The notes under the pieces were generated by a model, which was given only the letters and a program-made list of their open reading frames with translations, was not told where the DNA came from and searched no databases. A stretch of 64,000 nucleotides of DNA from Candidatus Aenigmatarchaeota archaeon (GTDB taxonomy: Archaea; Aenigmatarchaeota; Aenigmatarchaeia; CG10238-14; SpSt-28), in assembly GCA_018920305.1 (NCBI GenBank), contig JAHLMO010000001.1, forward strand, positions 101,926 through 165,925. Direction: 5' to 3'. Numbering within the stretch: the first letter of the stretch is position 1; each line of letters opens with the position of its first letter. The translations under genes were made by a program, and so were the position numbers. Below, piece by piece: positions 14,180 to 42,254 of the stretch.

Positions 14180-14283
14180 AGCCCCGTCGTCTAGTGGCCA
14201 AGGATGCCGGGCTTTGGTCAAGCCAAAGCTTTGAAAATAATGAAAGAAACCCGGAGACCCCGGTTCGAATCCGGGCGGGGCTA
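14180..14283 (+). tRNA. tRNA-Gln (anticodon UUG) carrying a 31-nt intron at the canonical 37/38 position.
   Basis: Acceptor AGCCCCG/CGGGGCT. Anticodon stem CCGGG/CCCGG. Loop CUUUGG interrupted by tcaagccaaagctttgaaaataatgaaagaa. T-arm CCCGG-TTCGAAT-CCGGG. No encoded CCA. Confidence 0.8.
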
Positions 14284-18655: not shown

Positions 18656-19933
18656 ATGACAAGAAAACCACATCTAAATATAGTAATTGTAGGACATGTA
18701 GATCAAGGAAAATCAACACTAGCTGGTAGGTTATTCTATGAAACAGGAGCGATAAGGGAAGATGAGTTAAAGAAGCTAAGAGAACTTTCACAAGAATTTA
18801 AAATAGAAGGAGGAGAATTTGCATATATTTTAGATAGAGAAATAGAAGAAAGAAAAAGAGGAATGACAATAGATATAGCTCATAGACCATTCGAAACACA
18901 AAAATACTTCTTTACAATAATAGACGCACCAGGTCACAGAGATTTTGTTAAAAACATGATTACAGGAGCTTCTCAAGCAGATGCTGCAATATTAGTTGTA
19001 AGTGCAAAGCCTGGAGAAGGAATTCAGGCTCAAACAAGAGAACACGCATATTTAATAAGATCTTTAGGAATTAATCAGTTAATTGTTGCTATTACTAAGA
19101 TGGATACAGTAAATTATGATGAAAGTGCTTATAATAAATTAAAAGATGAAGTTTTAAATACACTTTTAAAGCCATTAGGATATCCAGTAGATAAGATACA
19201 TGTAGTACCTGTAAGCGCACAATATGGTGAAAATATAACTAAAAGGAGCGATAAAATGCCATGGTATAAAGGACCTTGCTTAGTTGAAGCATTAGATATG
19301 TTGCAAGCACCACCAAGACCTGTTGATAAACCATTAAGAATTCCTATACAAGATGTATTTAGCATTACAGGTGTAGGTACTGTACCTGTTGGAAGAGTTG
19401 AAAGCGGAAGATTAAAGGTAGGAGATACTGTAATATTTGAGCCAAGTGGAGTAAAAGGTGAAGTAAAATCTGTAGAAATGCACCATCAACCAATGCAAGA
19501 AGCATTACCTGGAGATAATATTGGATTTAACGTTAGAGGTGTAGCAAAAACAGATATTAGAAGAGGAGATGTTGCTGGACATCCTTCGAATCCACCAACT
19601 GTTGCAAAAGAGTTTATAGCACAAGTAGTTATTTTAGAACATCCAACATCTATTTCAGTAGGTTATACTCCAGTATTTCATATACATACAGCTACAGTAG
19701 CAGGAAAAATAGTTGAAATTATTGCTAAAATAGACCCAAAAACAGGACAAGAAATAGAAAAAAATCCACAATTTATTAAAAAGGGAGATGTTGCAAAAAT
19801 AAGAGTTCAACCATTAAAGCCAGTAGTTGTTGAAAAGTTTTCAGAGTTTCCAGCTTTAGGAAGATTTGCAATGAGAGATATGGGAATGACAGTTGGAGCA
19901 GGAATAGTATTAGATGTAGTAAAGGCTAAATAA
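18656..19933 (+). CDS. tuf: Translation elongation factor EF-1alpha.
   Basis: G1 VGHVDQGKST. G3 DAPGH. G4 NKMD-like TKMD. 425 aa with canonical domain II/III sequence. Confidence 0.9.
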   Translation: MTRKPHLNIVIVGHVDQGKSTLAGRLFYETGAIREDELKKLRELSQEFKIEGGEFAYILDREIEERKRGMTIDIAHRPFETQKYFFTIIDAPGHRDFVKNMITGASQADAAILVVSAKPGEGIQAQTREHAYLIRSLGINQLIVAITKMDTVNYDESAYNKLKDEVLNTLLKPLGYPVDKIHVVPVSAQYGENITKRSDKMPWYKGPCLVEALDMLQAPPRPVDKPLRIPIQDVFSITGVGTVPVGRVESGRLKVGDTVIFEPSGVKGEVKSVEMHHQPMQEALPGDNIGFNVRGVAKTDIRRGDVAGHPSNPPTVAKEFIAQVVILEHPTSISVGYTPVFHIHTATVAGKIVEIIAKIDPKTGQEIEKNPQFIKKGDVAKIRVQPLKPVVVEKFSEFPALGRFAMRDMGMTVGAGIVLDVVKAK

Positions 19934-33432: not shown

Positions 33433-34275
33433 TTATAACTTTTTATTTAAATATATAATGTTGTTTCTTCCTCTTTTTTCAACGCTTACTATTCCTCTTT
33501 GCTTAAAAGACGAAATTATTTTGCTTATTTTTGCTTTAGAAAGTTGAGTTAATTCTACTAATTTTTTTTGATTTATTGGATTGTTTTTCATTAATATTTC
33601 TAAAACTTTTCTTTCGTTTATATCTAAAACTTCAATTATTTTCTTTCTTTCTTTTTCTAATTTAATTTTATAGTATAGATAAAGTATTGCAATAATAATT
33701 AGGGAAGCTATTACTATTATTGTTATTATTGAATAAGGTAATGGGATTATTTTTTCTATCTTCTTTAATGTAAAACTTAATTCAAAAGTTGTTATATTAT
33801 TTTTTCTTACAAATAAAATAATTCTTTTTCCATCGCTTAAAAAAGTTATATTTTCTGCAATTTCTTCTTTTTCTTCTTTTACAGCATATCCAATTGGTAA
33901 AAAAATAGATATATAAAATCTTTCTGCTTTTGTTAATAATTTAAATTCATATCTATTTTTTTCATCTACTATTTTATCTGTTTCTACTGAAATTTTAAAA
34001 GAAATAGGTAAATCTGAAATATTTAATACTTCGCAAATTATTGAATTTTTTTCAAAAAGATTACAATTAACTTTATCGCTTCCTTCTAATATTTTTAGAT
34101 TATATAATTCTTTGTTAAAAACCATTGAAATATCTTTTTCTTTTAAAGTTATTGTTATGTTATTAATTGTTTTTAAATCTTCTGTTATATATTGATCTAT
34201 CGATATTATATTGTTACTTAAAGCAAGTGGTAAAATTAGTATTGCTATAATCACGATTTTAGCGAGTTTATTCAT
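33433..34275 (-). CDS. Membrane-anchored transcription regulator with a C-terminal winged HTH.
   Basis: N-terminal signal/TM, extracytoplasmic domain, second TM helix, then a cytoplasmic TrmB/ArsR-like wHTH (ERKVLEILMKNNPINQKKLVELTQLSKAKISKIISSFKQRGIVSV). Confidence 0.45.
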   Translation of the reverse strand: MNKLAKIVIIAILILPLALSNNIISIDQYITEDLKTINNITITLKEKDISMVFNKELYNLKILEGSDKVNCNLFEKNSIICEVLNISDLPISFKISVETDKIVDEKNRYEFKLLTKAERFYISIFLPIGYAVKEEKEEIAENITFLSDGKRIILFVRKNNITTFELSFTLKKIEKIIPLPYSIITIIVIASLIIIAILYLYYKIKLEKERKKIIEVLDINERKVLEILMKNNPINQKKLVELTQLSKAKISKIISSFKQRGIVSVEKRGRNNIIYLNKKL

Positions 34276-34329
34276 ATTTTAATTAATAAATTTAAAATTT
34301 TTAAGTTTTTTCTTTTTGTATTTTAAAAA

Positions 34330-34445
34330 ATCAAAAAAATTTTAATTTTTATTTAATTTTCTAAAAAAATTTTAATTTATAAACATTTTTCTAAAAAATT
34401 TTTAATTTATAAACTAAAATCTAAAAAAATTTTTTAATTAAAAAA
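34330..34445. repeat. Degenerate tandem A/T repeats (unit about ctaaaaaaatttttaatttataaac, about 3 copies) upstream of the S-layer-like gene.
   Basis: Read directly: ...ctaaaaaaattttaatttataaac / atttttctaaaaaatttttaatttataaac / taaaatctaaaaaaattttttaatta. Confidence 0.7.
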
Positions 34446-34500
34446 TTGGCTGTAAACTGTTTACTGATCGATTTAAATAACCCTACCCCTTTCTTTATTT

Positions 34501-34551
34501 ATGGAAAATCCTTACCAGAGCTATGTAGCAATGAAGGTAAGGATTTTCCAT
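34501..34551 (+). promoter_or_regulatory. Perfect 16-bp inverted repeat (ATGGAAAATCCTTACC ... GGTAAGGATTTTCCAT) with a 19-nt spacer, ending 16 nt before the S-layer-like gene start.
   Basis: Read directly. The two halves are exact reverse complements. A 20-codon ORF (MENPYQSYVAMKVRIFHAAK, stop at 34561-34563) spans it. Confidence 0.6.
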
Positions 34552-34566
34552 GCTGCTAAATAAACC

Positions 34567-36708
34567 ATGACGCTCGTAAAAAAACTTGGTGCAATAGCAC
34601 TTGGAAGCATTTTATTAGCTTCAACTCTAGTACCTTTAGCAGCTGCACAATTAGATGTTAAAACAGCTGTAGAAAGATTAGGAGCTCCTGGAGATTATTG
34701 GATAGTAGTTGGAAGAGATGCACTAGTTGATGATATTATATCTGCTATTGATTTAGCAACAAGATTTGCAGGATTTGCAACAACAGAAAAACAATTAACT
34801 GGAACAAAAGAATATGAAATAAAAGGATGGGATGTAAGATTAAATCTAGATTCTGATGATTTAGAAACTGGATTACCAGGATTTATAAGTATATATGATA
34901 AAAATGTATTGCCACAATTAAAAGATAATTTAGTAGTTAGAAACGGAACAAGATCAATTAGCGGAGTTGCAGAATATGTAAAATTAGGAAAAGATAATGG
35001 CGATAAAGCTATTCAATTAGCTTCAGAAATTTATGCTAATTCAACATTAGCTATAGCTTTAAGTCCACAAGGTGAAGGTAAGTATTACTTAAAATATTAT
35101 GTAGCATTAGATGATAATACTTGTAAAAACAGAATTTATGCAGATGCTACTCAAGGTTTATTAGTAAGATTTAAATTAGCTGGTAAAGATGTTGTAATTT
35201 CTGAAGTAGGAAATAATGAAGTAAAATTATTAAGTGGTTTTGGACCAGAATGGATAAATGCAGGTGATGTAAGAGATATTACAGGAACATCTTATAAATT
35301 AAGATTAGATAATGTAATTGGTTTTGGAAGCGATGCAGTAGTTCAATTATCTGTAATTGATGAAAGAGGAGTAGCATATCCATTAGTATTATATCCAGGA
35401 CAATATGATGTTGAACCAACAACAGAAGTAAAAGTAGTTGTTTTAAGAGCATTTGGATTTGGAGACACAAAAATGGCATATTTAGTCGCTGGAGTTGAAA
35501 GTGAAGTTAAAGATGGAGATAGATTAGACAATATATTCAAATGGTATGTTGCAACTTGTAGTGGTACAGGTGTTAATTACTTAAAAGAAATAGGATACAA
35601 ATTAGCTCCAAATGAAACAGTATATTTAGAACCAGGACAATCAATAGCATTTCCAAATAATTACTTGAAATTACAATACTTAGGATTAACATTAACTGAA
35701 AAAGATTATTTAGCTACAGTAAACTTTAGAGTTGTTGATATGCCAACTGATAAAGATAAATACTATGGAGTATGTTCTGATCTTAGTTCTGTAAGTGGTG
35801 TTGGAGTAGAAATTAGTGGAGTACCATTATATACGAAAGAAAAAGTCTATGACAAGCTATATGCAATTCATGCTACTTGTAGCAGCCAAAATATTTCAGC
35901 AATAGTTGCATATGATTCAAAAGATCAAAAATATGTAAAGTTAGATCTAGATAACTATCCTGTAACTGTTGGACCAACAGGTTTAAGTTTAGGTAGTAAT
36001 TTAGAGGGTGATGATGATGATAAAGACATTAAGGTAACACTATCAAAAAGTGGAAGTAATCTAGATATAATAGTTGATGATGAAGATAAAGTAATTACAA
36101 ATGTAGTTGGAGCAAGGAATAGCGATTTCCAAATAGGAGTAGATAATTTAATAAGTAATTTCAATAATACTTGGGTATACACAGCATTTGGTCACAAAAT
36201 ATTTGTATCTAGCGATGCAAAATCATTAACATTAAAGTGGACTCCAGTTCAAGGATATGCAAGAGTTGTATTAGGAGAAGCTACTGAAAAAGTAGCTGGC
36301 GGAGAAGTAGTTAGAGTATTAGATGTAAATAGATTACAAGTTCCAGTTGCAAAATTAGATACAGAGGTTAATTTAGCTACAGCAGATAAAAATCTAGTAG
36401 TTGTTGGAGGTCCATATGTTAACAGAGTTGCAGCAGCATTATTAAATGTACCATATAGAGATGATAGTGCAATAAGAGCATTATATGGAGATTTAGGAGC
36501 AATAGAAAGAGGATTAATAAAAGCTTTTGATTTAGGAGGAGGAAAAGTTGCATTATTAGTAGCTGGATGGAGAGCAGAAGATACAAGATTAGCAGCTAGT
36601 GTATTACAACAATACGAAAGATTTGCAGATAGATTAGCAGCTGGAGATACATTAATAATTGGAGGAACTAGAGAAGCTCCAACAATAGAAGCAAAAACTT
36701 CCAAGTAA
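34567..36708 (+). CDS. Secreted cell-surface protein, S-layer protein candidate.
   Basis: N-terminal signal peptide (MTLVKKLGAIALGSILLASTLVPLAAAQ). 713 aa. Composition shifts to A/G/V/D/T/L-rich and K-poor compared with the other proteins in the window. Long structured upstream region and a T-rich terminator. Confidence 0.55.
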   Translation: MTLVKKLGAIALGSILLASTLVPLAAAQLDVKTAVERLGAPGDYWIVVGRDALVDDIISAIDLATRFAGFATTEKQLTGTKEYEIKGWDVRLNLDSDDLETGLPGFISIYDKNVLPQLKDNLVVRNGTRSISGVAEYVKLGKDNGDKAIQLASEIYANSTLAIALSPQGEGKYYLKYYVALDDNTCKNRIYADATQGLLVRFKLAGKDVVISEVGNNEVKLLSGFGPEWINAGDVRDITGTSYKLRLDNVIGFGSDAVVQLSVIDERGVAYPLVLYPGQYDVEPTTEVKVVVLRAFGFGDTKMAYLVAGVESEVKDGDRLDNIFKWYVATCSGTGVNYLKEIGYKLAPNETVYLEPGQSIAFPNNYLKLQYLGLTLTEKDYLATVNFRVVDMPTDKDKYYGVCSDLSSVSGVGVEISGVPLYTKEKVYDKLYAIHATCSSQNISAIVAYDSKDQKYVKLDLDNYPVTVGPTGLSLGSNLEGDDDDKDIKVTLSKSGSNLDIIVDDEDKVITNVVGARNSDFQIGVDNLISNFNNTWVYTAFGHKIFVSSDAKSLTLKWTPVQGYARVVLGEATEKVAGGEVVRVLDVNRLQVPVAKLDTEVNLATADKNLVVVGGPYVNRVAAALLNVPYRDDSAIRALYGDLGAIERGLIKAFDLGGGKVALLVAGWRAEDTRLAASVLQQYERFADRLAAGDTLIIGGTREAPTIEAKTSK

Positions 36709-41221: not shown

Positions 41222-42205
41222 GTGGAAAAAGTTGAATGGTTGTATAAAACCTTTGATGAAGAAACAGATGAGAGATTTGGAAAAGACCCTTCTCAAAGAA
41301 ATTTAGAAGAATTAAAAAATACTGGAATTATAAATATCGATAAGCATACTGGACCTACGAGTCATTTAATTTCTGAGTATGTTAAAAACATATTAAAAAC
41401 TAAAAAAAGTGGTCATATAGGAACTTTAGATCCAAACGCAAGCGGAGTTTTGCCTATATTGCTTGATAGAAGTACAAGATTAGCTCCGTTATTTCAAAAA
41501 TTAGATAAAGAATATATTGGAATAATGCATTTGCATAAAGATATTAGCGATGAAATTCTTATAGAATTTGTTGAAAATAAGTTTATAGGAAAAATTCAAC
41601 AACTTCCTCCGAGAAGAAGTGCTGTAGCTAGAGTTTTAAGAGGAAGATATGTTTATGAAGCAAAAGTATTAGAAAAAGATGGTAAAGATGTTTTGTTTAG
41701 AATAATTTGTGAAAGCGGTTTCTATGTTAGAAAATATGTACATGATATAGGACAAAAACTAAAAATAGGAGCTCATTTAAAAGAACTAAGAAGAGTTTCC
41801 ATAGGAAAGTATGATTTTGAAAATAATCAATATCTTAAGATTTTTGATGAAGAAAATTCTATAAGTTTATTTGAGCTTGCAAAAATTGCTGATGATGAAG
41901 ATAAATTAAAAAAAGTAATATTACCTGCAGAGTATTGTTTACCTCACATAAAAAAAGTTTTTGTAAAAGATACTGCGATTTATAATATAACTTTAGGTTC
42001 TCCATTATATGTTGCTGGTATTACAAGAGTTCAAAAGGGAATAAAAAAAGATGAGTTAGTAGCGATATTTAGCTTAAAAAATGAGTTAATAGCTTTTGGA
42101 AAATCAATGATGAGTGATGAAGAGATGATTAAAGCAAAAGAAGGAGTTGCTGTTAAAGTAGATAGAGTTTTTATAGAAAAAGGTATATATCCAAAGCTAG
42201 TCTAA
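41222..42205 (+). CDS. cbf5: Cbf5 (H/ACA snoRNP pseudouridine synthase, TruB family) with a PUA domain.
   Basis: Catalytic Asp motif GHIGTLDPNASGVLPI. C-terminal PUA (FVKDTAIYNITLGSPLYVAGI). 327 aa. Confidence 0.85.
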   Translation: MEKVEWLYKTFDEETDERFGKDPSQRNLEELKNTGIINIDKHTGPTSHLISEYVKNILKTKKSGHIGTLDPNASGVLPILLDRSTRLAPLFQKLDKEYIGIMHLHKDISDEILIEFVENKFIGKIQQLPPRRSAVARVLRGRYVYEAKVLEKDGKDVLFRIICESGFYVRKYVHDIGQKLKIGAHLKELRRVSIGKYDFENNQYLKIFDEENSISLFELAKIADDEDKLKKVILPAEYCLPHIKKVFVKDTAIYNITLGSPLYVAGITRVQKGIKKDELVAIFSLKNELIAFGKSMMSDEEMIKAKEGVAVKVDRVFIEKGIYPKLV

Positions 42206-42254
42206 AATTCTGAAATTGAGAGGTTATTTTAATAAATTATGAGTAATTTCTATT

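What the first reader, a model, noticed from the sequence alone, without database searches (positions are those of the whole stretch)
34501..34566. Perfect 16-bp palindrome and 20-codon mini-ORF abutting the start of the S-layer-like gene
ATGGAAAATCCTTACC and GGTAAGGATTTTCCAT are exact reverse complements separated by 19 nt (34501-34551). A short ORF (MENPYQSYVAMKVRIFHAAK) starts in the left arm and stops 3 nt before the ATG of the 713-aa secreted protein. A 16/16 palindrome is far beyond chance in 64 kb. It could be an operator for a dimeric regulator (a membrane-anchored wHTH regulator is encoded 200 bp upstream on the other strand), a 5'-UTR stabilising hairpin of a highly expressed mRNA, or a translational-coupling leader peptide.
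Basis: seen in the sequence. Interest (0 to 1): 0.55.

Follow-up and report, generated by a model that had tools for sequence, protein, structure and literature searches.

The report
Kink-turn hairpin on S-layer mRNA leader
The palindrome is real; it is the DNA copy of a conserved RNA hairpin, tipped by a kink-turn (a motif bound by the archaeal protein L7Ae), at the predicted start of the S-layer protein's mRNA in Aenigmarchaeota, where it most likely protects or controls that message rather than acting as a repressor site or a small-peptide gene.

Summary
In detail: arms 34501-34516 and 34536-34551 are 16/16 complementary (17 bp with a U·G at 34500/34552). The 20-codon ORF ends 3 nt before the ATG of a PF05124 S-layer gene. 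The window comes from a Candidatus Aenigmarchaeota (DPANN) genome with 25% GC.

The hairpin lies upstream of the S-layer gene in every homologous locus recovered that reaches that far upstream. That gives 10 distinct sequences, with S-layer proteins 40-85% identical. Of 20 pairs, 12 show compensatory double changes and 95.8% of cells are paired, against 29-50% in slid controls.

The apex is invariant where the stem is not: CC-N-GA-GC…GC-RAU-GA-R-GG. This is the sequence signature of a kink-turn: a 3-nt bulge, tandem G·A/A·G, and C:G at -1b:-1n. A second, very divergent S-layer clade has an unrelated stem capped by a K-loop with the same GA…RAUGA.

The TATA box (34472-34479) places the predicted transcription start at the base of the stem.

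The mini-ORF's ATG is absent from most homologues. The arm sequences covary rather than stay fixed, so the operator and leader-peptide readings are not supported.

Best reading: a 5'-terminal, probably L7Ae-bound, stabilising or regulatory hairpin of the S-layer mRNA. Transcription start, L7Ae binding and function are inferred, not shown.

The parts
34333..34433 (+). Three ~30-nt A/T-rich direct repeats, each ending in ...TTTAATTTATAAAC; an upstream promoter-region element of unknown role
   Evidence: family D1, spacing 30 and 30 nt. The ATAAAC cores are conserved in clade-1 homologues.
34453..34465 (.). 13-bp palindrome GTAAAC-T-GTTTAC, 6 nt upstream of the TATA box; candidate DNA operator or activator site for the neighbouring wHTH protein (inferred)
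   Evidence: The core AAAC-N-GTTT is conserved in sequence, not by covariation, in all 7 sequences of A5, six distinct clade-1 loci. A similar AAATTGTTTCAAG sits at the same distance from the TATA box in clade 2.
34472..34479 (+). Archaeal TATA box TTTAAATA of the S-layer promoter
   Evidence: Invariant in all clade-1 loci and 28-31 nt upstream of the stem base. In this window the same octamer starts 26-28 nt before the ATG of three apparently leaderless genes.
34500..34516 (+). 5' arm of the long (NC) helix. The predicted transcription start is A34501 (range 34498-34503), so the transcript starts at the stem base
   Evidence: The start position is inferred from the TATA distance; it was not measured.
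34517..34519 (+). Non-bulged strand of the kink-turn: A(3n) G(2n) A(1n)
   Evidence: The GA is invariant in all 14 distinct sequences of the two clades.
34520..34529 (+). Short C-helix hairpin GCU-AUGU-AGC that caps the element
   Evidence: G34520:C34529 is invariant. The second pair is C:G in 9 sequences and U:A in 1, a compensatory change. The loop sequence is variable.
34530..34535 (+). Bulged strand of the kink-turn: AAU (L1-L3), G(1b) A(2b), A(3b); resembles a C box (RUGANG)
   Evidence: A-U-G-A is invariant in all 14 distinct sequences. L1 is A, U or G; 3b is A or G.
34536..34552 (+). 3' arm of the long (NC) helix
34553..34566 (+). A-rich, unstructured 14-nt spacer between the hairpin and the start codon; no Shine-Dalgarno sequence
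   Evidence: The spacer is 13-18 nt in all clade-1 homologues. There is no SD-like motif.
34567..36708 (+). S-layer protein gene (713 aa, signal peptide, PF05124)
34501..34563 (+).
   Evidence: The start codon is absent in L005, L006, L010-L013 and in clade 2. L004 has a stop in the loop.
33433..34275 (-). Divergent gene for a membrane-anchored winged-helix protein (DUF7343); a conserved neighbour of the S-layer gene and a possible transcriptional regulator of it
   Evidence: Adjacent to the S-layer gene in every locus with enough flank.

Best explanation
The palindrome is the DNA image of a cis-acting RNA stem-loop that makes up the first ~53 nt of a ~66-nt 5' leader of the S-layer mRNA in Aenigmarchaeota.

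Anatomy. A long helix of 14-18 bp starts at, or within one nucleotide of, the predicted transcription start. Its top is a kink-turn. The non-bulged strand is 5'-CC-N-G-A-GC. The bulged strand is 5'-GC-(A/U/G)AU-G-A-(A/G)-GG. This gives a 3-nt bulge, tandem sheared G·A/A·G pairs and a C:G pair at -1b:-1n, closed by a 2-4 bp C-helix with a small loop. A 13-18 nt A-rich single-stranded spacer with no Shine-Dalgarno sequence leads to the AUG.

Proposed mechanism. The ribosomal/sRNP protein L7Ae binds the kink-turn. The resulting 5'-terminal helix-protein complex shields the 5' end of this very abundant mRNA from 5'-end-dependent decay by archaeal 5'-3' exoribonucleases. The hairpin ends just outside the ribosome's footprint on the start codon, so initiation stays open. 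Binding of L7Ae could in addition tie S-layer mRNA fate to the free L7Ae pool.

Shown here: the hairpin exists, it is conserved by compensatory change, the K-turn signature is invariant, there is one copy per locus, and it always precedes the S-layer gene.

Inferred: that it is transcribed from A34501, that it kinks and binds L7Ae, and that the effect is stabilisation. My sub-confidences are 0.9 for a transcribed structural RNA element of the leader, 0.7 for a K-turn/K-loop, 0.55 for L7Ae as the ligand, and 0.4 for mRNA stabilisation as the main function.
For: Structure. In 10 distinct homologous leaders (S-layer proteins 40-85% identical), 95.8% of cells pair and 12 of 20 pairs carry compensatory double changes. 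The covariation score is 0.41 against 0.02-0.07 when partners are slid by 1-3 columns, and no shuffle out of 500 reached the observed value on four of the five measures; for further pair types 5 of 500 did. RNAalifold independently predicts the 14-bp core helix, a 3x6 internal loop and the 2-bp cap. Every homologue folds the same way on its own, at -24 to -28 kcal/mol and z -5.9 to -7.7.

K-turn signature. GAG…C.AUGA.GG is invariant while the stem varies. This matches the published definition: a 3-nt bulge followed by tandem G:A and A:G pairs, with -1b:-1n usually C:G (PMC6298567). It also matches the C-box-like Kt-b and D-box-like Kt-n strands found in L7Ae-bound mRNAs (PMC5539422). Four sequences read a perfect D box, CUGA.

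Independent clade. L014, L017, L018 and L019 have S-layer proteins with almost no detectable similarity to the window's. They carry an unrelated 11-12 bp stem capped by GA-UAAAA-(G/A)AU-GA, a K-loop, with one compensatory pair and one U·G. L7Ae binds both K-turns and K-loops (PMC7994747).

Strand. The covariance model scores 69 bits on the + strand and 36 on the - strand. G·U pairs occur on the sense strand.

Position. The TATA box starts 28-31 nt before the stem base in clade-1 loci with an unambiguous TATA assignment. In this genome the same box starts 26-30 nt before the ATG of apparently leaderless genes. There is no oligo-T terminator between the hairpin and the ATG.

Specificity. There is one copy in the window and one per locus, always upstream of the S-layer gene.

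Precedent. 5'-UTR stem-loops stabilise bacterial S-layer mRNAs (PMC10221546), and 5'-terminal stem-loops stabilise bacterial mRNAs (references in PMC3997798). Archaea have 5'-3' exoribonucleases (PMC3792030 and PMC7144898). L7Ae/sRNP assembly is thought to protect C/D sRNA bodies during trimming (PMC7994747).
Against: There are no transcript data, so the transcription start rests on promoter geometry alone.

The K-turn is recognised from sequence and secondary structure only; neither kinking nor L7Ae binding can be tested with these tools. The L7Ae gene is not in the window or the fetched loci, although it is universal in archaea.

In clade 2 the best TATA candidate would leave about 18 unpaired nucleotides before the hairpin. 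That weakens the strictly 5'-terminal part of the model.

The clade-1 stem is stable without protein: -25 kcal/mol at 37 °C, and still about -5 to -8 at 80 °C. It is therefore unclear what L7Ae would add.

All sequences come from one phylum and from few samples, so phylogenetic independence is limited.

No archaeal S-layer mRNA with a K-turn was found in the literature searches. That means no direct precedent.
Confidence: 0.55

Rival explanations
1. It is a conserved 5'-leader RNA hairpin, but the apex is not a functional kink-turn. The conserved internal loop would be the site of some other factor (a nuclease, an initiation factor, an unknown RNA-binding protein) or a tertiary motif of another kind. 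The element would act simply as a structural stabiliser or processing signal.
For: The same covariation evidence applies. K-turn assignment from sequence is acknowledged to be error-prone (PMC5539422). The stem needs no protein to fold.
Against: All six diagnostic nucleotides (G2n, A1n, L2 A, L3 U, G1b, A2b) are invariant in all 14 distinct sequences. The C:G at -1b:-1n and the 3-nt bulge geometry are kept in all clade-1 sequences; clade 2 has a K-loop in their place. The GA…RAUGA signature persists in that second clade, which has an unrelated stem and a K-loop architecture.
Confidence: 0.2
2. It is an L7Ae-responsive translational or abundance control element rather than a stabiliser. Free L7Ae, a read-out of ribosome and sRNP assembly, would bind the leader and lower or raise S-layer synthesis, as in l7ae autoregulation.
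For: L7Ae represses translation through 5'-UTR K-turns in archaea, and 32 mRNA fragments were enriched with L7Ae in S. acidocaldarius (PMC5539422; PMC6298567).
Against: In the known cases the K-turn hairpin overlaps or abuts the Shine-Dalgarno site and is unstable without protein. Here there is no SD, the hairpin ends 13-18 nt before the AUG, the K-turn lies 14-17 bp further away at the tip, and the stem is stable on its own.
Confidence: 0.12
3. It is a DNA operator. A dimeric regulator, for example the adjacent membrane-anchored wHTH protein, would bind the two arms at the transcription start and repress the S-layer promoter.
For: It is a perfect palindrome overlapping the predicted start site. 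A wHTH gene is a conserved neighbour.
Against: Arm sequences differ at 11 of 17 positions between homologues while staying complementary, which is the pattern of base pairing rather than of a protein-read half-site. The strictly conserved part is the asymmetric centre. Half-site centres are 35 bp apart. Stem length varies from 14 to 18 bp. A better, sequence-conserved 13-bp palindrome lies just upstream of the TATA box.
Confidence: 0.05
4. It is a leader peptide or upstream ORF. Either the 20-codon ORF from 34501 or the 10-codon ORF from the invariant AUG at 34531 would be translated, coupling ribosomes to the SD-less main start codon by termination-reinitiation.
For: The genome is mostly leaderless, so a 5'-terminal AUG could be used, and the main AUG lacks an SD. 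An ORF of 9-11 codons from the invariant AUG ends within 10 nt of, or overlaps, the main AUG in 8 of 10 clade-1 sequences.
Against: The 34501 ATG is replaced by TAG in six clade-1 sequences and is absent in clade 2. The inner ORF is 3 codons in L012, fused in frame to the main ORF in L004, and 2-3 codons in clade 2. Peptide sequences follow the stem changes and are not conserved. Both AUGs are buried in a helix or K-turn of -25 kcal/mol.
Confidence: 0.04
5. It is a separate small RNA gene (C/D-box-like, H/ACA-like or other L7Ae RNP) that merely lies upstream of the S-layer gene.
For: C-box-like and D-box-like strands are present and the element has its own TATA box.
Against: There are no terminal C and D boxes, no single-stranded guide regions, no pseudouridylation pocket and no ACA box. 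There is no oligo-T terminator before the ATG. No Rfam family matches, even at E ≤ 10. The only promoter-like TATA for the S-layer gene is the one in front of the hairpin.
Confidence: 0.03

Closest known systems
L7Ae-binding kink-turns in archaeal mRNA 5' leaders (l7ae autoregulatory K-turn; Daume et al. 2017, PMC5539422; Huang, Ashraf & Lilley 2019, PMC6298567)
   Same: A hairpin in a 5' UTR containing a standard simple K-turn: a 3-nt (G/A)AU bulge, tandem G·A/A·G, and C-box-like and D-box-like strands. In some of the known cases, as here, the terminal loop is on the C-helix.
   Different: It is on the S-layer gene, not on l7ae. It does not overlap a ribosome-binding site. The NC helix is 14-18 bp and thermodynamically stable without protein, whereas the known ones are marginal and fold only on L7Ae binding. 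-1b:-1n is C:G here and in none of the six l7ae examples. It is predicted to sit at the very 5' end.
K-loop of the C'/D' motif of archaeal box C/D sRNAs (Nolivos et al. 2005, cited in PMC7994747)
   Same: The order D'-like strand, short loop, C'-like strand. The clade-2 version (GA-UAAAA-GAU-GA) is a K-loop in the strict sense. L7Ae is the known ligand.
   Different: There are no terminal C/D boxes and no guide sequences. The flanks pair with each other in a long helix. The element is part of an mRNA.
5'-UTR stabilising stem-loops of bacterial S-layer mRNAs (Lactobacillus slpA; review PMC10221546) and 5'-terminal stem-loops such as ompA (references in PMC3997798)
   Same: A stable hairpin at or near the 5' end of an extremely abundant envelope-protein mRNA, leaving the start region accessible. 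This is the same functional logic: a long-lived message.
   Different: The domain of life and the decay machinery differ. Those elements have no protein-binding K-turn apex. Here stabilisation is inferred, not measured.
Palindromic operators of archaeal wHTH regulators (TrmB/MarR/Lrp-type)
   Same: A perfect inverted repeat near a promoter, next to a wHTH gene.
   Different: The arms covary instead of being sequence-conserved, the centre is asymmetric and conserved, and the spacing is too wide. The neighbouring 13-bp GTAAAC-T-GTTTAC fits this class better.

Membership tests
Kink-turn / K-loop RNA motif | Two helices (C and NC) separated by a three-nucleotide bulge on one strand | tested here: met
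   The consensus structure has a 3x6 internal loop between a 14-17 bp helix and a 2-4 bp capped helix. Read as a K-turn, this gives a 3-nt bulge (A/U/G)AU. In clade 2 the C-helix is replaced by a loop, which makes it a K-loop.
Kink-turn / K-loop RNA motif | Tandem G·A and A·G pairs (1b·1n, 2b·2n) directly after the bulge on the NC side | tested here: met
   The required G, A (non-bulged) and G, A (bulged) are invariant in all 14 distinct sequences from two clades. This is a sequence-level test only.
Kink-turn / K-loop RNA motif | Watson-Crick -1b:-1n pair closing the C-helix (C:G in most natural K-turns) | tested here: met
   C34529:G34520 is invariant in all 10 clade-1 sequences (pair 25-34). 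The rule is taken from PMC6298567.
Kink-turn / K-loop RNA motif | Tightly kinked three-dimensional geometry with cross-strand A-minor contacts | not testable with these tools
   Needs FRET, chemical probing or crystallography.
Kink-turn / K-loop RNA motif | High-affinity binding by an L7Ae-family protein, lost on GA mutation | not testable with these tools
   Needs EMSA or RIP. L7Ae is not encoded in the window or the loci held.
l7ae-type autoregulatory 5'-UTR K-turn | Lies in the leader of the L7Ae gene itself | tested here: not met
   The downstream gene is an S-layer protein.
l7ae-type autoregulatory 5'-UTR K-turn | The K-turn hairpin overlaps or abuts the Shine-Dalgarno site, so that protein binding occludes it | tested here: not met
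   Clade 1 has no SD. The hairpin ends 13-18 nt before the AUG and the K-turn is at the distal tip. In clade 2 the SD lies about 10-20 nt (varying by locus) downstream of the hairpin.
l7ae-type autoregulatory 5'-UTR K-turn | The stem-loop is unstable in the absence of protein | tested here: not met
   -24 to -28 kcal/mol at 37 °C and -5 to -8 at 80 °C in clade 1. It is marginal only in clade 2 at high temperature.
Box C/D sRNA | Terminal C and D boxes plus internal C'/D' and 10-12 nt single-stranded guides | tested here: not met
   Only one D-like/C-like pair is present, the flanks are base-paired to each other, and there is no Rfam hit.
H/ACA sRNA | Hairpin with a pseudouridylation pocket, and an ACA box 3' of the stem | tested here: not met
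   The helix is continuous with no internal pocket, there is no conserved ACA after the stem, and there is no Rfam hit.
5'-terminal mRNA-stabilising stem-loop | Stable stem-loop within the transcribed leader | tested here: met
   It lies downstream of the only conserved TATA box and there is no terminator before the ORF.
5'-terminal mRNA-stabilising stem-loop | [quoted passage not shown] | tested here: inconclusive
   Predicted to have 0-1 unpaired nt from the TATA-to-stem distance (28-31 nt), compared with the TATA-to-ATG distance of leaderless genes in the same window (26-30 nt). There are no experimental 5' ends. In clade 2 about 18 nt may precede the stem.
5'-terminal mRNA-stabilising stem-loop | Removal shortens mRNA half-life | not testable with these tools
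   Needs reporter or rifampicin-type decay assays in an archaeal host.
Palindromic operator of a dimeric regulator | Half-site sequence conserved among orthologous promoters | tested here: not met
   11 of 17 stem positions change in both arms together.
Leader peptide / regulatory uORF | Start codon and reading frame conserved among homologues | tested here: not met
   The ATG at 34501 is present in only 3 of 9 distinct clade-1 sequences that cover the site (window, L001, L003; L004 is cut off before it) and in no clade-2 sequence. The inner AUG ORF varies from 2 to 11 codons or fuses with the main ORF.

The most novel reading that the evidence does not exclude
In these reduced, largely leaderless and SD-less DPANN archaea, the L7Ae-K-turn complex at the 5' end of the S-layer mRNA would be an active expression device rather than a passive cap. 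It would either recruit or position the translation machinery on a leadered, SD-less mRNA, or make the cell's most abundant mRNA a sensor and sink of the free L7Ae pool. Envelope synthesis would then be coupled directly to ribosome/sRNP assembly. This would be a class of archaeal post-transcriptional control that has not been described.
Probability: 0.12. Interest if true: 0.8.

Novelty: new variant of a known kind. Interest (0 to 1): 0.55.

Why it matters
Very few cis-acting mRNA elements are known in archaea, and almost none in DPANN lineages, which cannot yet be manipulated genetically.

This element has covariation support and a recognisable protein-binding motif. It has a fixed position on the mRNA of what is presumably the most abundant protein of the cell, and it recurs in two deeply diverged S-layer gene clades.

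If L7Ae binds it, the set of natural L7Ae-mRNA interactions extends beyond l7ae autoregulation to envelope biogenesis. It would also be a natural example of a K-turn used as a 5'-end cap rather than as an RBS switch.

It gives a compact, testable RNA of 53 nt for in-vitro work with recombinant L7Ae. It could also serve as an expression or stability module for archaeal genetic tools.

The conserved promoter architecture next to it (operator-like palindrome, three 30-bp repeats, conserved membrane-anchored wHTH neighbour) offers a second testable hypothesis about S-layer gene regulation.

Tried and rejected
- Rfam, at gathering thresholds over the whole window and at E ≤ 10 over 34200-34800: only tRNAs and chance-level hits, no family for the hairpin.
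- Covariance model R1, full-sensitivity search of the window and of 17 loci: no second copy anywhere, so there is no regulon within the ~155 kb held.
- Generic K-loop/K-turn pattern scan of the window: 9 hits against 5.8 expected by chance, and only the S-layer hairpin stands out.
- Leader-peptide reading: rejected on start-codon and frame conservation.
- Operator reading for the 16-bp arms: rejected on covariation and asymmetry.
- C/D and H/ACA guide RNA readings: rejected for lack of guides, pocket and ACA box.
- Intrinsic terminator or attenuator: no oligo-T follows the hairpin.
- RNA thermometer or RBS-masking switch: the start codon and spacer lie outside the helix.
- Second promoter giving a leaderless S-layer mRNA: no TATA-like box 26-30 nt before 34567.
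- Literature search for K-turn or L7Ae together with S-layer mRNA: no precedent found.
Full report
**Observation**

ATGGAAAATCCTTACC (34501-34516) and GGTAAGGATTTTCCAT (34536-34551) are perfect reverse complements separated by 19 nt. As RNA the helix gains a U·G pair at 34500/34552. The ORF 34501-34563 encodes MENPYQSYVAMKVRIFHAAK and stops 3 nt before the ATG at 34567.

The downstream 713-aa protein has a signal peptide and a PF05124 S-layer domain. The database names it an S-layer protein of a Candidatus Aenigmarchaeota MAG.

The window has 25% GC and an intron-containing tRNA, as expected for such an archaeon.

The divergent gene 33433-34275(-) encodes a protein with an N-terminal hydrophobic segment, a second one near residues 180-205, and a C-terminal winged helix (DUF7343).

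The palindrome is the only perfect inverted repeat of 16 nt or more with a short loop in the window. Composition-matched simulations give 0.03 such repeats per 64 kb, and about 0.001 for arms of this base composition. The RNA fold is -24.7 kcal/mol, z = -6.7.

**Conservation**

Protein searches, contig look-ups and two collection scans recovered every relative of the S-layer gene that these tools could reach. All are Aenigmarchaeota-like. In every locus that extends upstream of the gene, the hairpin is there.

There are ten distinct sequences: window (=L002, L015), L001 (=L007, L016), L003, L004 (contig starts inside the 5' arm), L005 (=L008), L006 (=L009), L010, L011, L012 and L013. Their S-layer proteins are 40-85% identical to the window's.

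On the MAFFT alignment A2, the structure I wrote has 95.8% of cells paired, and 12 of 20 pairs carry compensatory double changes. Versions with partners slid by 1-3 columns pair at 29-50% and have 0-3 such pairs. No shuffle out of 500 reaches the observed values on four of the five measures; on further pair types 5 of 500 do. RNAalifold, which was not given my structure, predicts the same 14-bp core helix, a 3x6 internal loop and a 2-bp cap. Each homologue folds the same way on its own.

Base pairing, not arm sequence, is therefore what selection keeps.

**The apex is the conserved part and reads as a kink-turn**

While 11 of 17 stem pairs vary, the "spacer" contains the invariant columns: GAG … C.AUGA.GG.

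Drawn on the consensus structure:
- The 5' strand is CC-N-G-A-GC.
- The 3' strand is GC-(A/U/G)-A-U-G-A-(A/G)-GG.

This gives a short C-helix whose closing pair is C:G, a three-nucleotide bulge, G·A and A·G at positions 1 and 2, a variable 3b·3n (A·A, G·U, A·U or A·C), and then the long NC helix starting with G:C.

[quoted passage not shown] It equals a D-box-like strand (CUGA exactly in L006, L010, L011 and L013) facing a C-box-like strand (AUGANG). These are the Kt-n and Kt-b strands that Daume et al. found in L7Ae-bound mRNAs (PMC5539422).

**A second clade confirms the signature**

A further search from a distant hit (P0010) gave a second S-layer clade: L014, L017, L018 and L019. P0010 matches the window's protein over only 11% of its length.

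Its leader has a hairpin with a completely different 11-12 bp stem, CUGUUUACU(A/G)U… / …A(U/C)AGUAA(G/A)CAG. The stem shows one compensatory A-U to G-C change and one U·G. It is capped by GA-UAAAA-(G/A)AU-GA. This is a K-loop, the variant in which the C-helix is replaced by a loop, as in the C'/D' motif of archaeal C/D sRNAs. L7Ae also binds K-loops (PMC7994747).

The six diagnostic nucleotides are therefore invariant in 14 distinct sequences from two clades with unrelated stems. I take this as good, though purely sequence-level, evidence for a K-turn/K-loop. Kinking and protein binding could not be tested.

**Position in the transcript**

An invariant TTTAAATA (34472-34479) lies upstream of the hairpin in all clade-1 loci. 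It starts 28-31 nt before the stem base.

The genome appears to be mostly leaderless and without Shine-Dalgarno sequences. The same octamer starts 26, 27 and 28 nt before the ATG of three other genes in the window, and one-mismatch versions lie at 29-30 nt.

Applying that distance puts the S-layer start at 34498-34502. A pyrimidine-purine step at T34500/A34501 fits, so the RNA would begin with the first nucleotide of the stem. L005 and L006 likewise have a Y-R step 0-1 nt before their stems.

No oligo-T follows the hairpin. A 13-18 nt A-rich spacer without SD leads to the AUG.

The S-layer mRNA is thus an exception in this genome, with a ~66-nt leader of which ~53 nt are the hairpin. All of this is inference from promoter geometry; there are no transcript data. 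In clade 2 the best TATA candidate would leave about 18 nt before the hairpin, and an SD (GAGGU) follows it. The "exactly 5'-terminal" feature may therefore be specific to clade 1.

**Rejected readings**

*Leader peptide.* The ATG at 34501 is present only in the window's near relatives and L003. Six clade-1 sequences have TAG there, and L004 has TAA in the loop. The other invariant AUG (34531) belongs to the K-turn strand. The ORF it opens is 9-11 codons in 8 of 10 clade-1 sequences, but 3 codons in L012, fused to the main ORF in L004, and 2-3 codons in clade 2.

*Operator.* Half-sites that change at 11 of 17 positions, an asymmetric conserved centre, a 35-bp centre-to-centre distance, and a 33-bit strand asymmetry of the covariance model all argue against a DNA site.

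*Guide RNAs.* There are no guides, pocket or ACA box, and no Rfam hits.

*Regulon.* The covariance model finds one copy in the window and one per locus, always before the S-layer gene. A generic K-loop scan finds nothing else above chance.

**Mechanism**

The best-supported mechanism is a 5'-terminal structured RNP.

- Stable 5'-UTR stem-loops are what give bacterial S-layer mRNAs their long half-lives (PMC10221546).
- 5'-terminal base pairing protects bacterial mRNAs generally (references in PMC3997798).
- Archaea possess 5'-3' exoribonucleases of the aRNase J/aCPSF2 type.
- L7Ae-based RNP assembly is thought to protect C/D sRNA bodies from trimming (PMC7994747).

The conserved 13-18 nt gap to the AUG is what one expects if the hairpin must not intrude on the initiating ribosome.

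The role of L7Ae is the least certain step. The clade-1 helix is stable alone: about -25 kcal/mol at 37 °C, and still -5 to -8 at 80 °C. The clade-2 helix is marginal at high temperature and would profit from a protein clamp.

A regulatory role, with free L7Ae as a growth signal, is a live alternative. However, the geometry differs from the known l7ae switch: there is no RBS overlap and the stem is stable.

**Comparison and novelty**

The element works like two known things at once: L7Ae-bound K-turns in archaeal mRNA leaders, and bacterial 5' stabiliser hairpins of S-layer mRNAs.

It fails the defining features of the l7ae autoregulatory class (gene, RBS occlusion, protein-dependent folding) and of C/D and H/ACA sRNAs. 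It meets the sequence-level features of the K-turn/K-loop motif.

I found no report of a K-turn on an S-layer mRNA and no Rfam family for it. I rate it a new variant of a known kind, of moderate interest. It is a clean, covariation-supported archaeal cis-RNA with a concrete, cheap biochemical test.

**Limits**

- All sequences come from one phylum and from a few hot-spring or sediment samples.
- The transcription start, the kinked geometry, L7Ae binding and the effect on the mRNA are all untested.
- The lineage's own L7Ae gene and leader were not available.

Noticed in passing
window 34453-34465 (also L003, L005, L006, L012, L013; clade 2 L014 about 2873-2885): A 13-bp palindrome GTAAAC-T-GTTTAC lies 6 nt upstream of the TATA box. 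Its core AAAC-N-GTTT is conserved in sequence, not by covariation, in every clade-1 locus. A related AAATTGTTTCAAG sits at the same distance from the TATA box in clade 2. This is the more plausible operator or activator site for the neighbouring wHTH protein.
   Followed up: partly
window 34333-34433: Three ~30-nt A/T-rich direct repeats at 30-nt spacing, each ending in TTTAATTTATAAAC, lie upstream of the S-layer promoter. The ATAAAC cores and the spacing are conserved in clade-1 homologues. They could be extra regulator sites, a UAS, or tandem TATA-like promoters.
   Followed up: partly
window 33433-34275 (-); L001, L003, L008, L011-L014, L016-L019: A membrane-anchored protein (extracytoplasmic domain, transmembrane segment, C-terminal DUF7343 winged helix) is the immediate upstream neighbour of the S-layer gene in every locus with enough flank. 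It is divergent in clade 1 and co-directional in clade 2, at 29-96% identity. This conserved pairing suggests an envelope-sensing one-component regulator of S-layer expression.
   Followed up: partly
whole window (e.g. genes starting at 18656, 42655, 45830, 56892, 59578): Almost no gene has a Shine-Dalgarno-like motif. TTTAAATA-type boxes start 26-30 nt before several ATGs, so the genome appears to be largely leaderless. The S-layer gene's ~66-nt leader is an exception.
   Followed up: partly
L014 2934-2957 versus window 34455-34473: In clade 2 the 5' arm of the leader hairpin (GAACTGTTTACTATCGAT) is nearly identical to the window's promoter segment (AAACTGTTTACTGATCGAT), which contains the operator-like palindrome, although the two lie at different positions relative to the TATA box. 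This is unexplained. It may be a second operator copy inside the transcribed region, or shared ancestry of the two elements.
   Followed up: partly
L014 2920-2937, L017-L019 equivalents, versus window 34501-34519: The predicted 5' ends of the two clades' mRNAs look alike: A(A/U)GGAAAA(A)UCC…C-GA-G. In clade 2 this stretch is not part of the hairpin. The significance is unknown.
   Followed up: no
window 14180-14283 (+): Rfam reports a 104-nt tRNA match (50.8 bits) that ARAGORN did not report. It is presumably an intron-containing archaeal tRNA.
   Followed up: no
window 34474-34483 and 34557-34566: TAAATAACCC in the TATA region is repeated as TAAATAAACC immediately before the S-layer ATG (family D4). 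It is not conserved in more distant homologues and is probably chance.
   Followed up: no
L014 1-1812 and L017 1-1311 versus L018 302-1309 and L019 301-1308: The radical-SAM gene upstream of the wHTH gene carries an intein with a LAGLIDADG domain in two clade-2 genomes (794-796 aa). It is intein-free (335 aa) in the other two.
   Followed up: no
window 42212-42250 (+): A weak K-loop-like hairpin (7-bp stem, AGA…UAUGAG) lies between the ORF ending at 42205 and tRNA-Arg at 42254. It is at chance level in the pattern scan.
   Followed up: no
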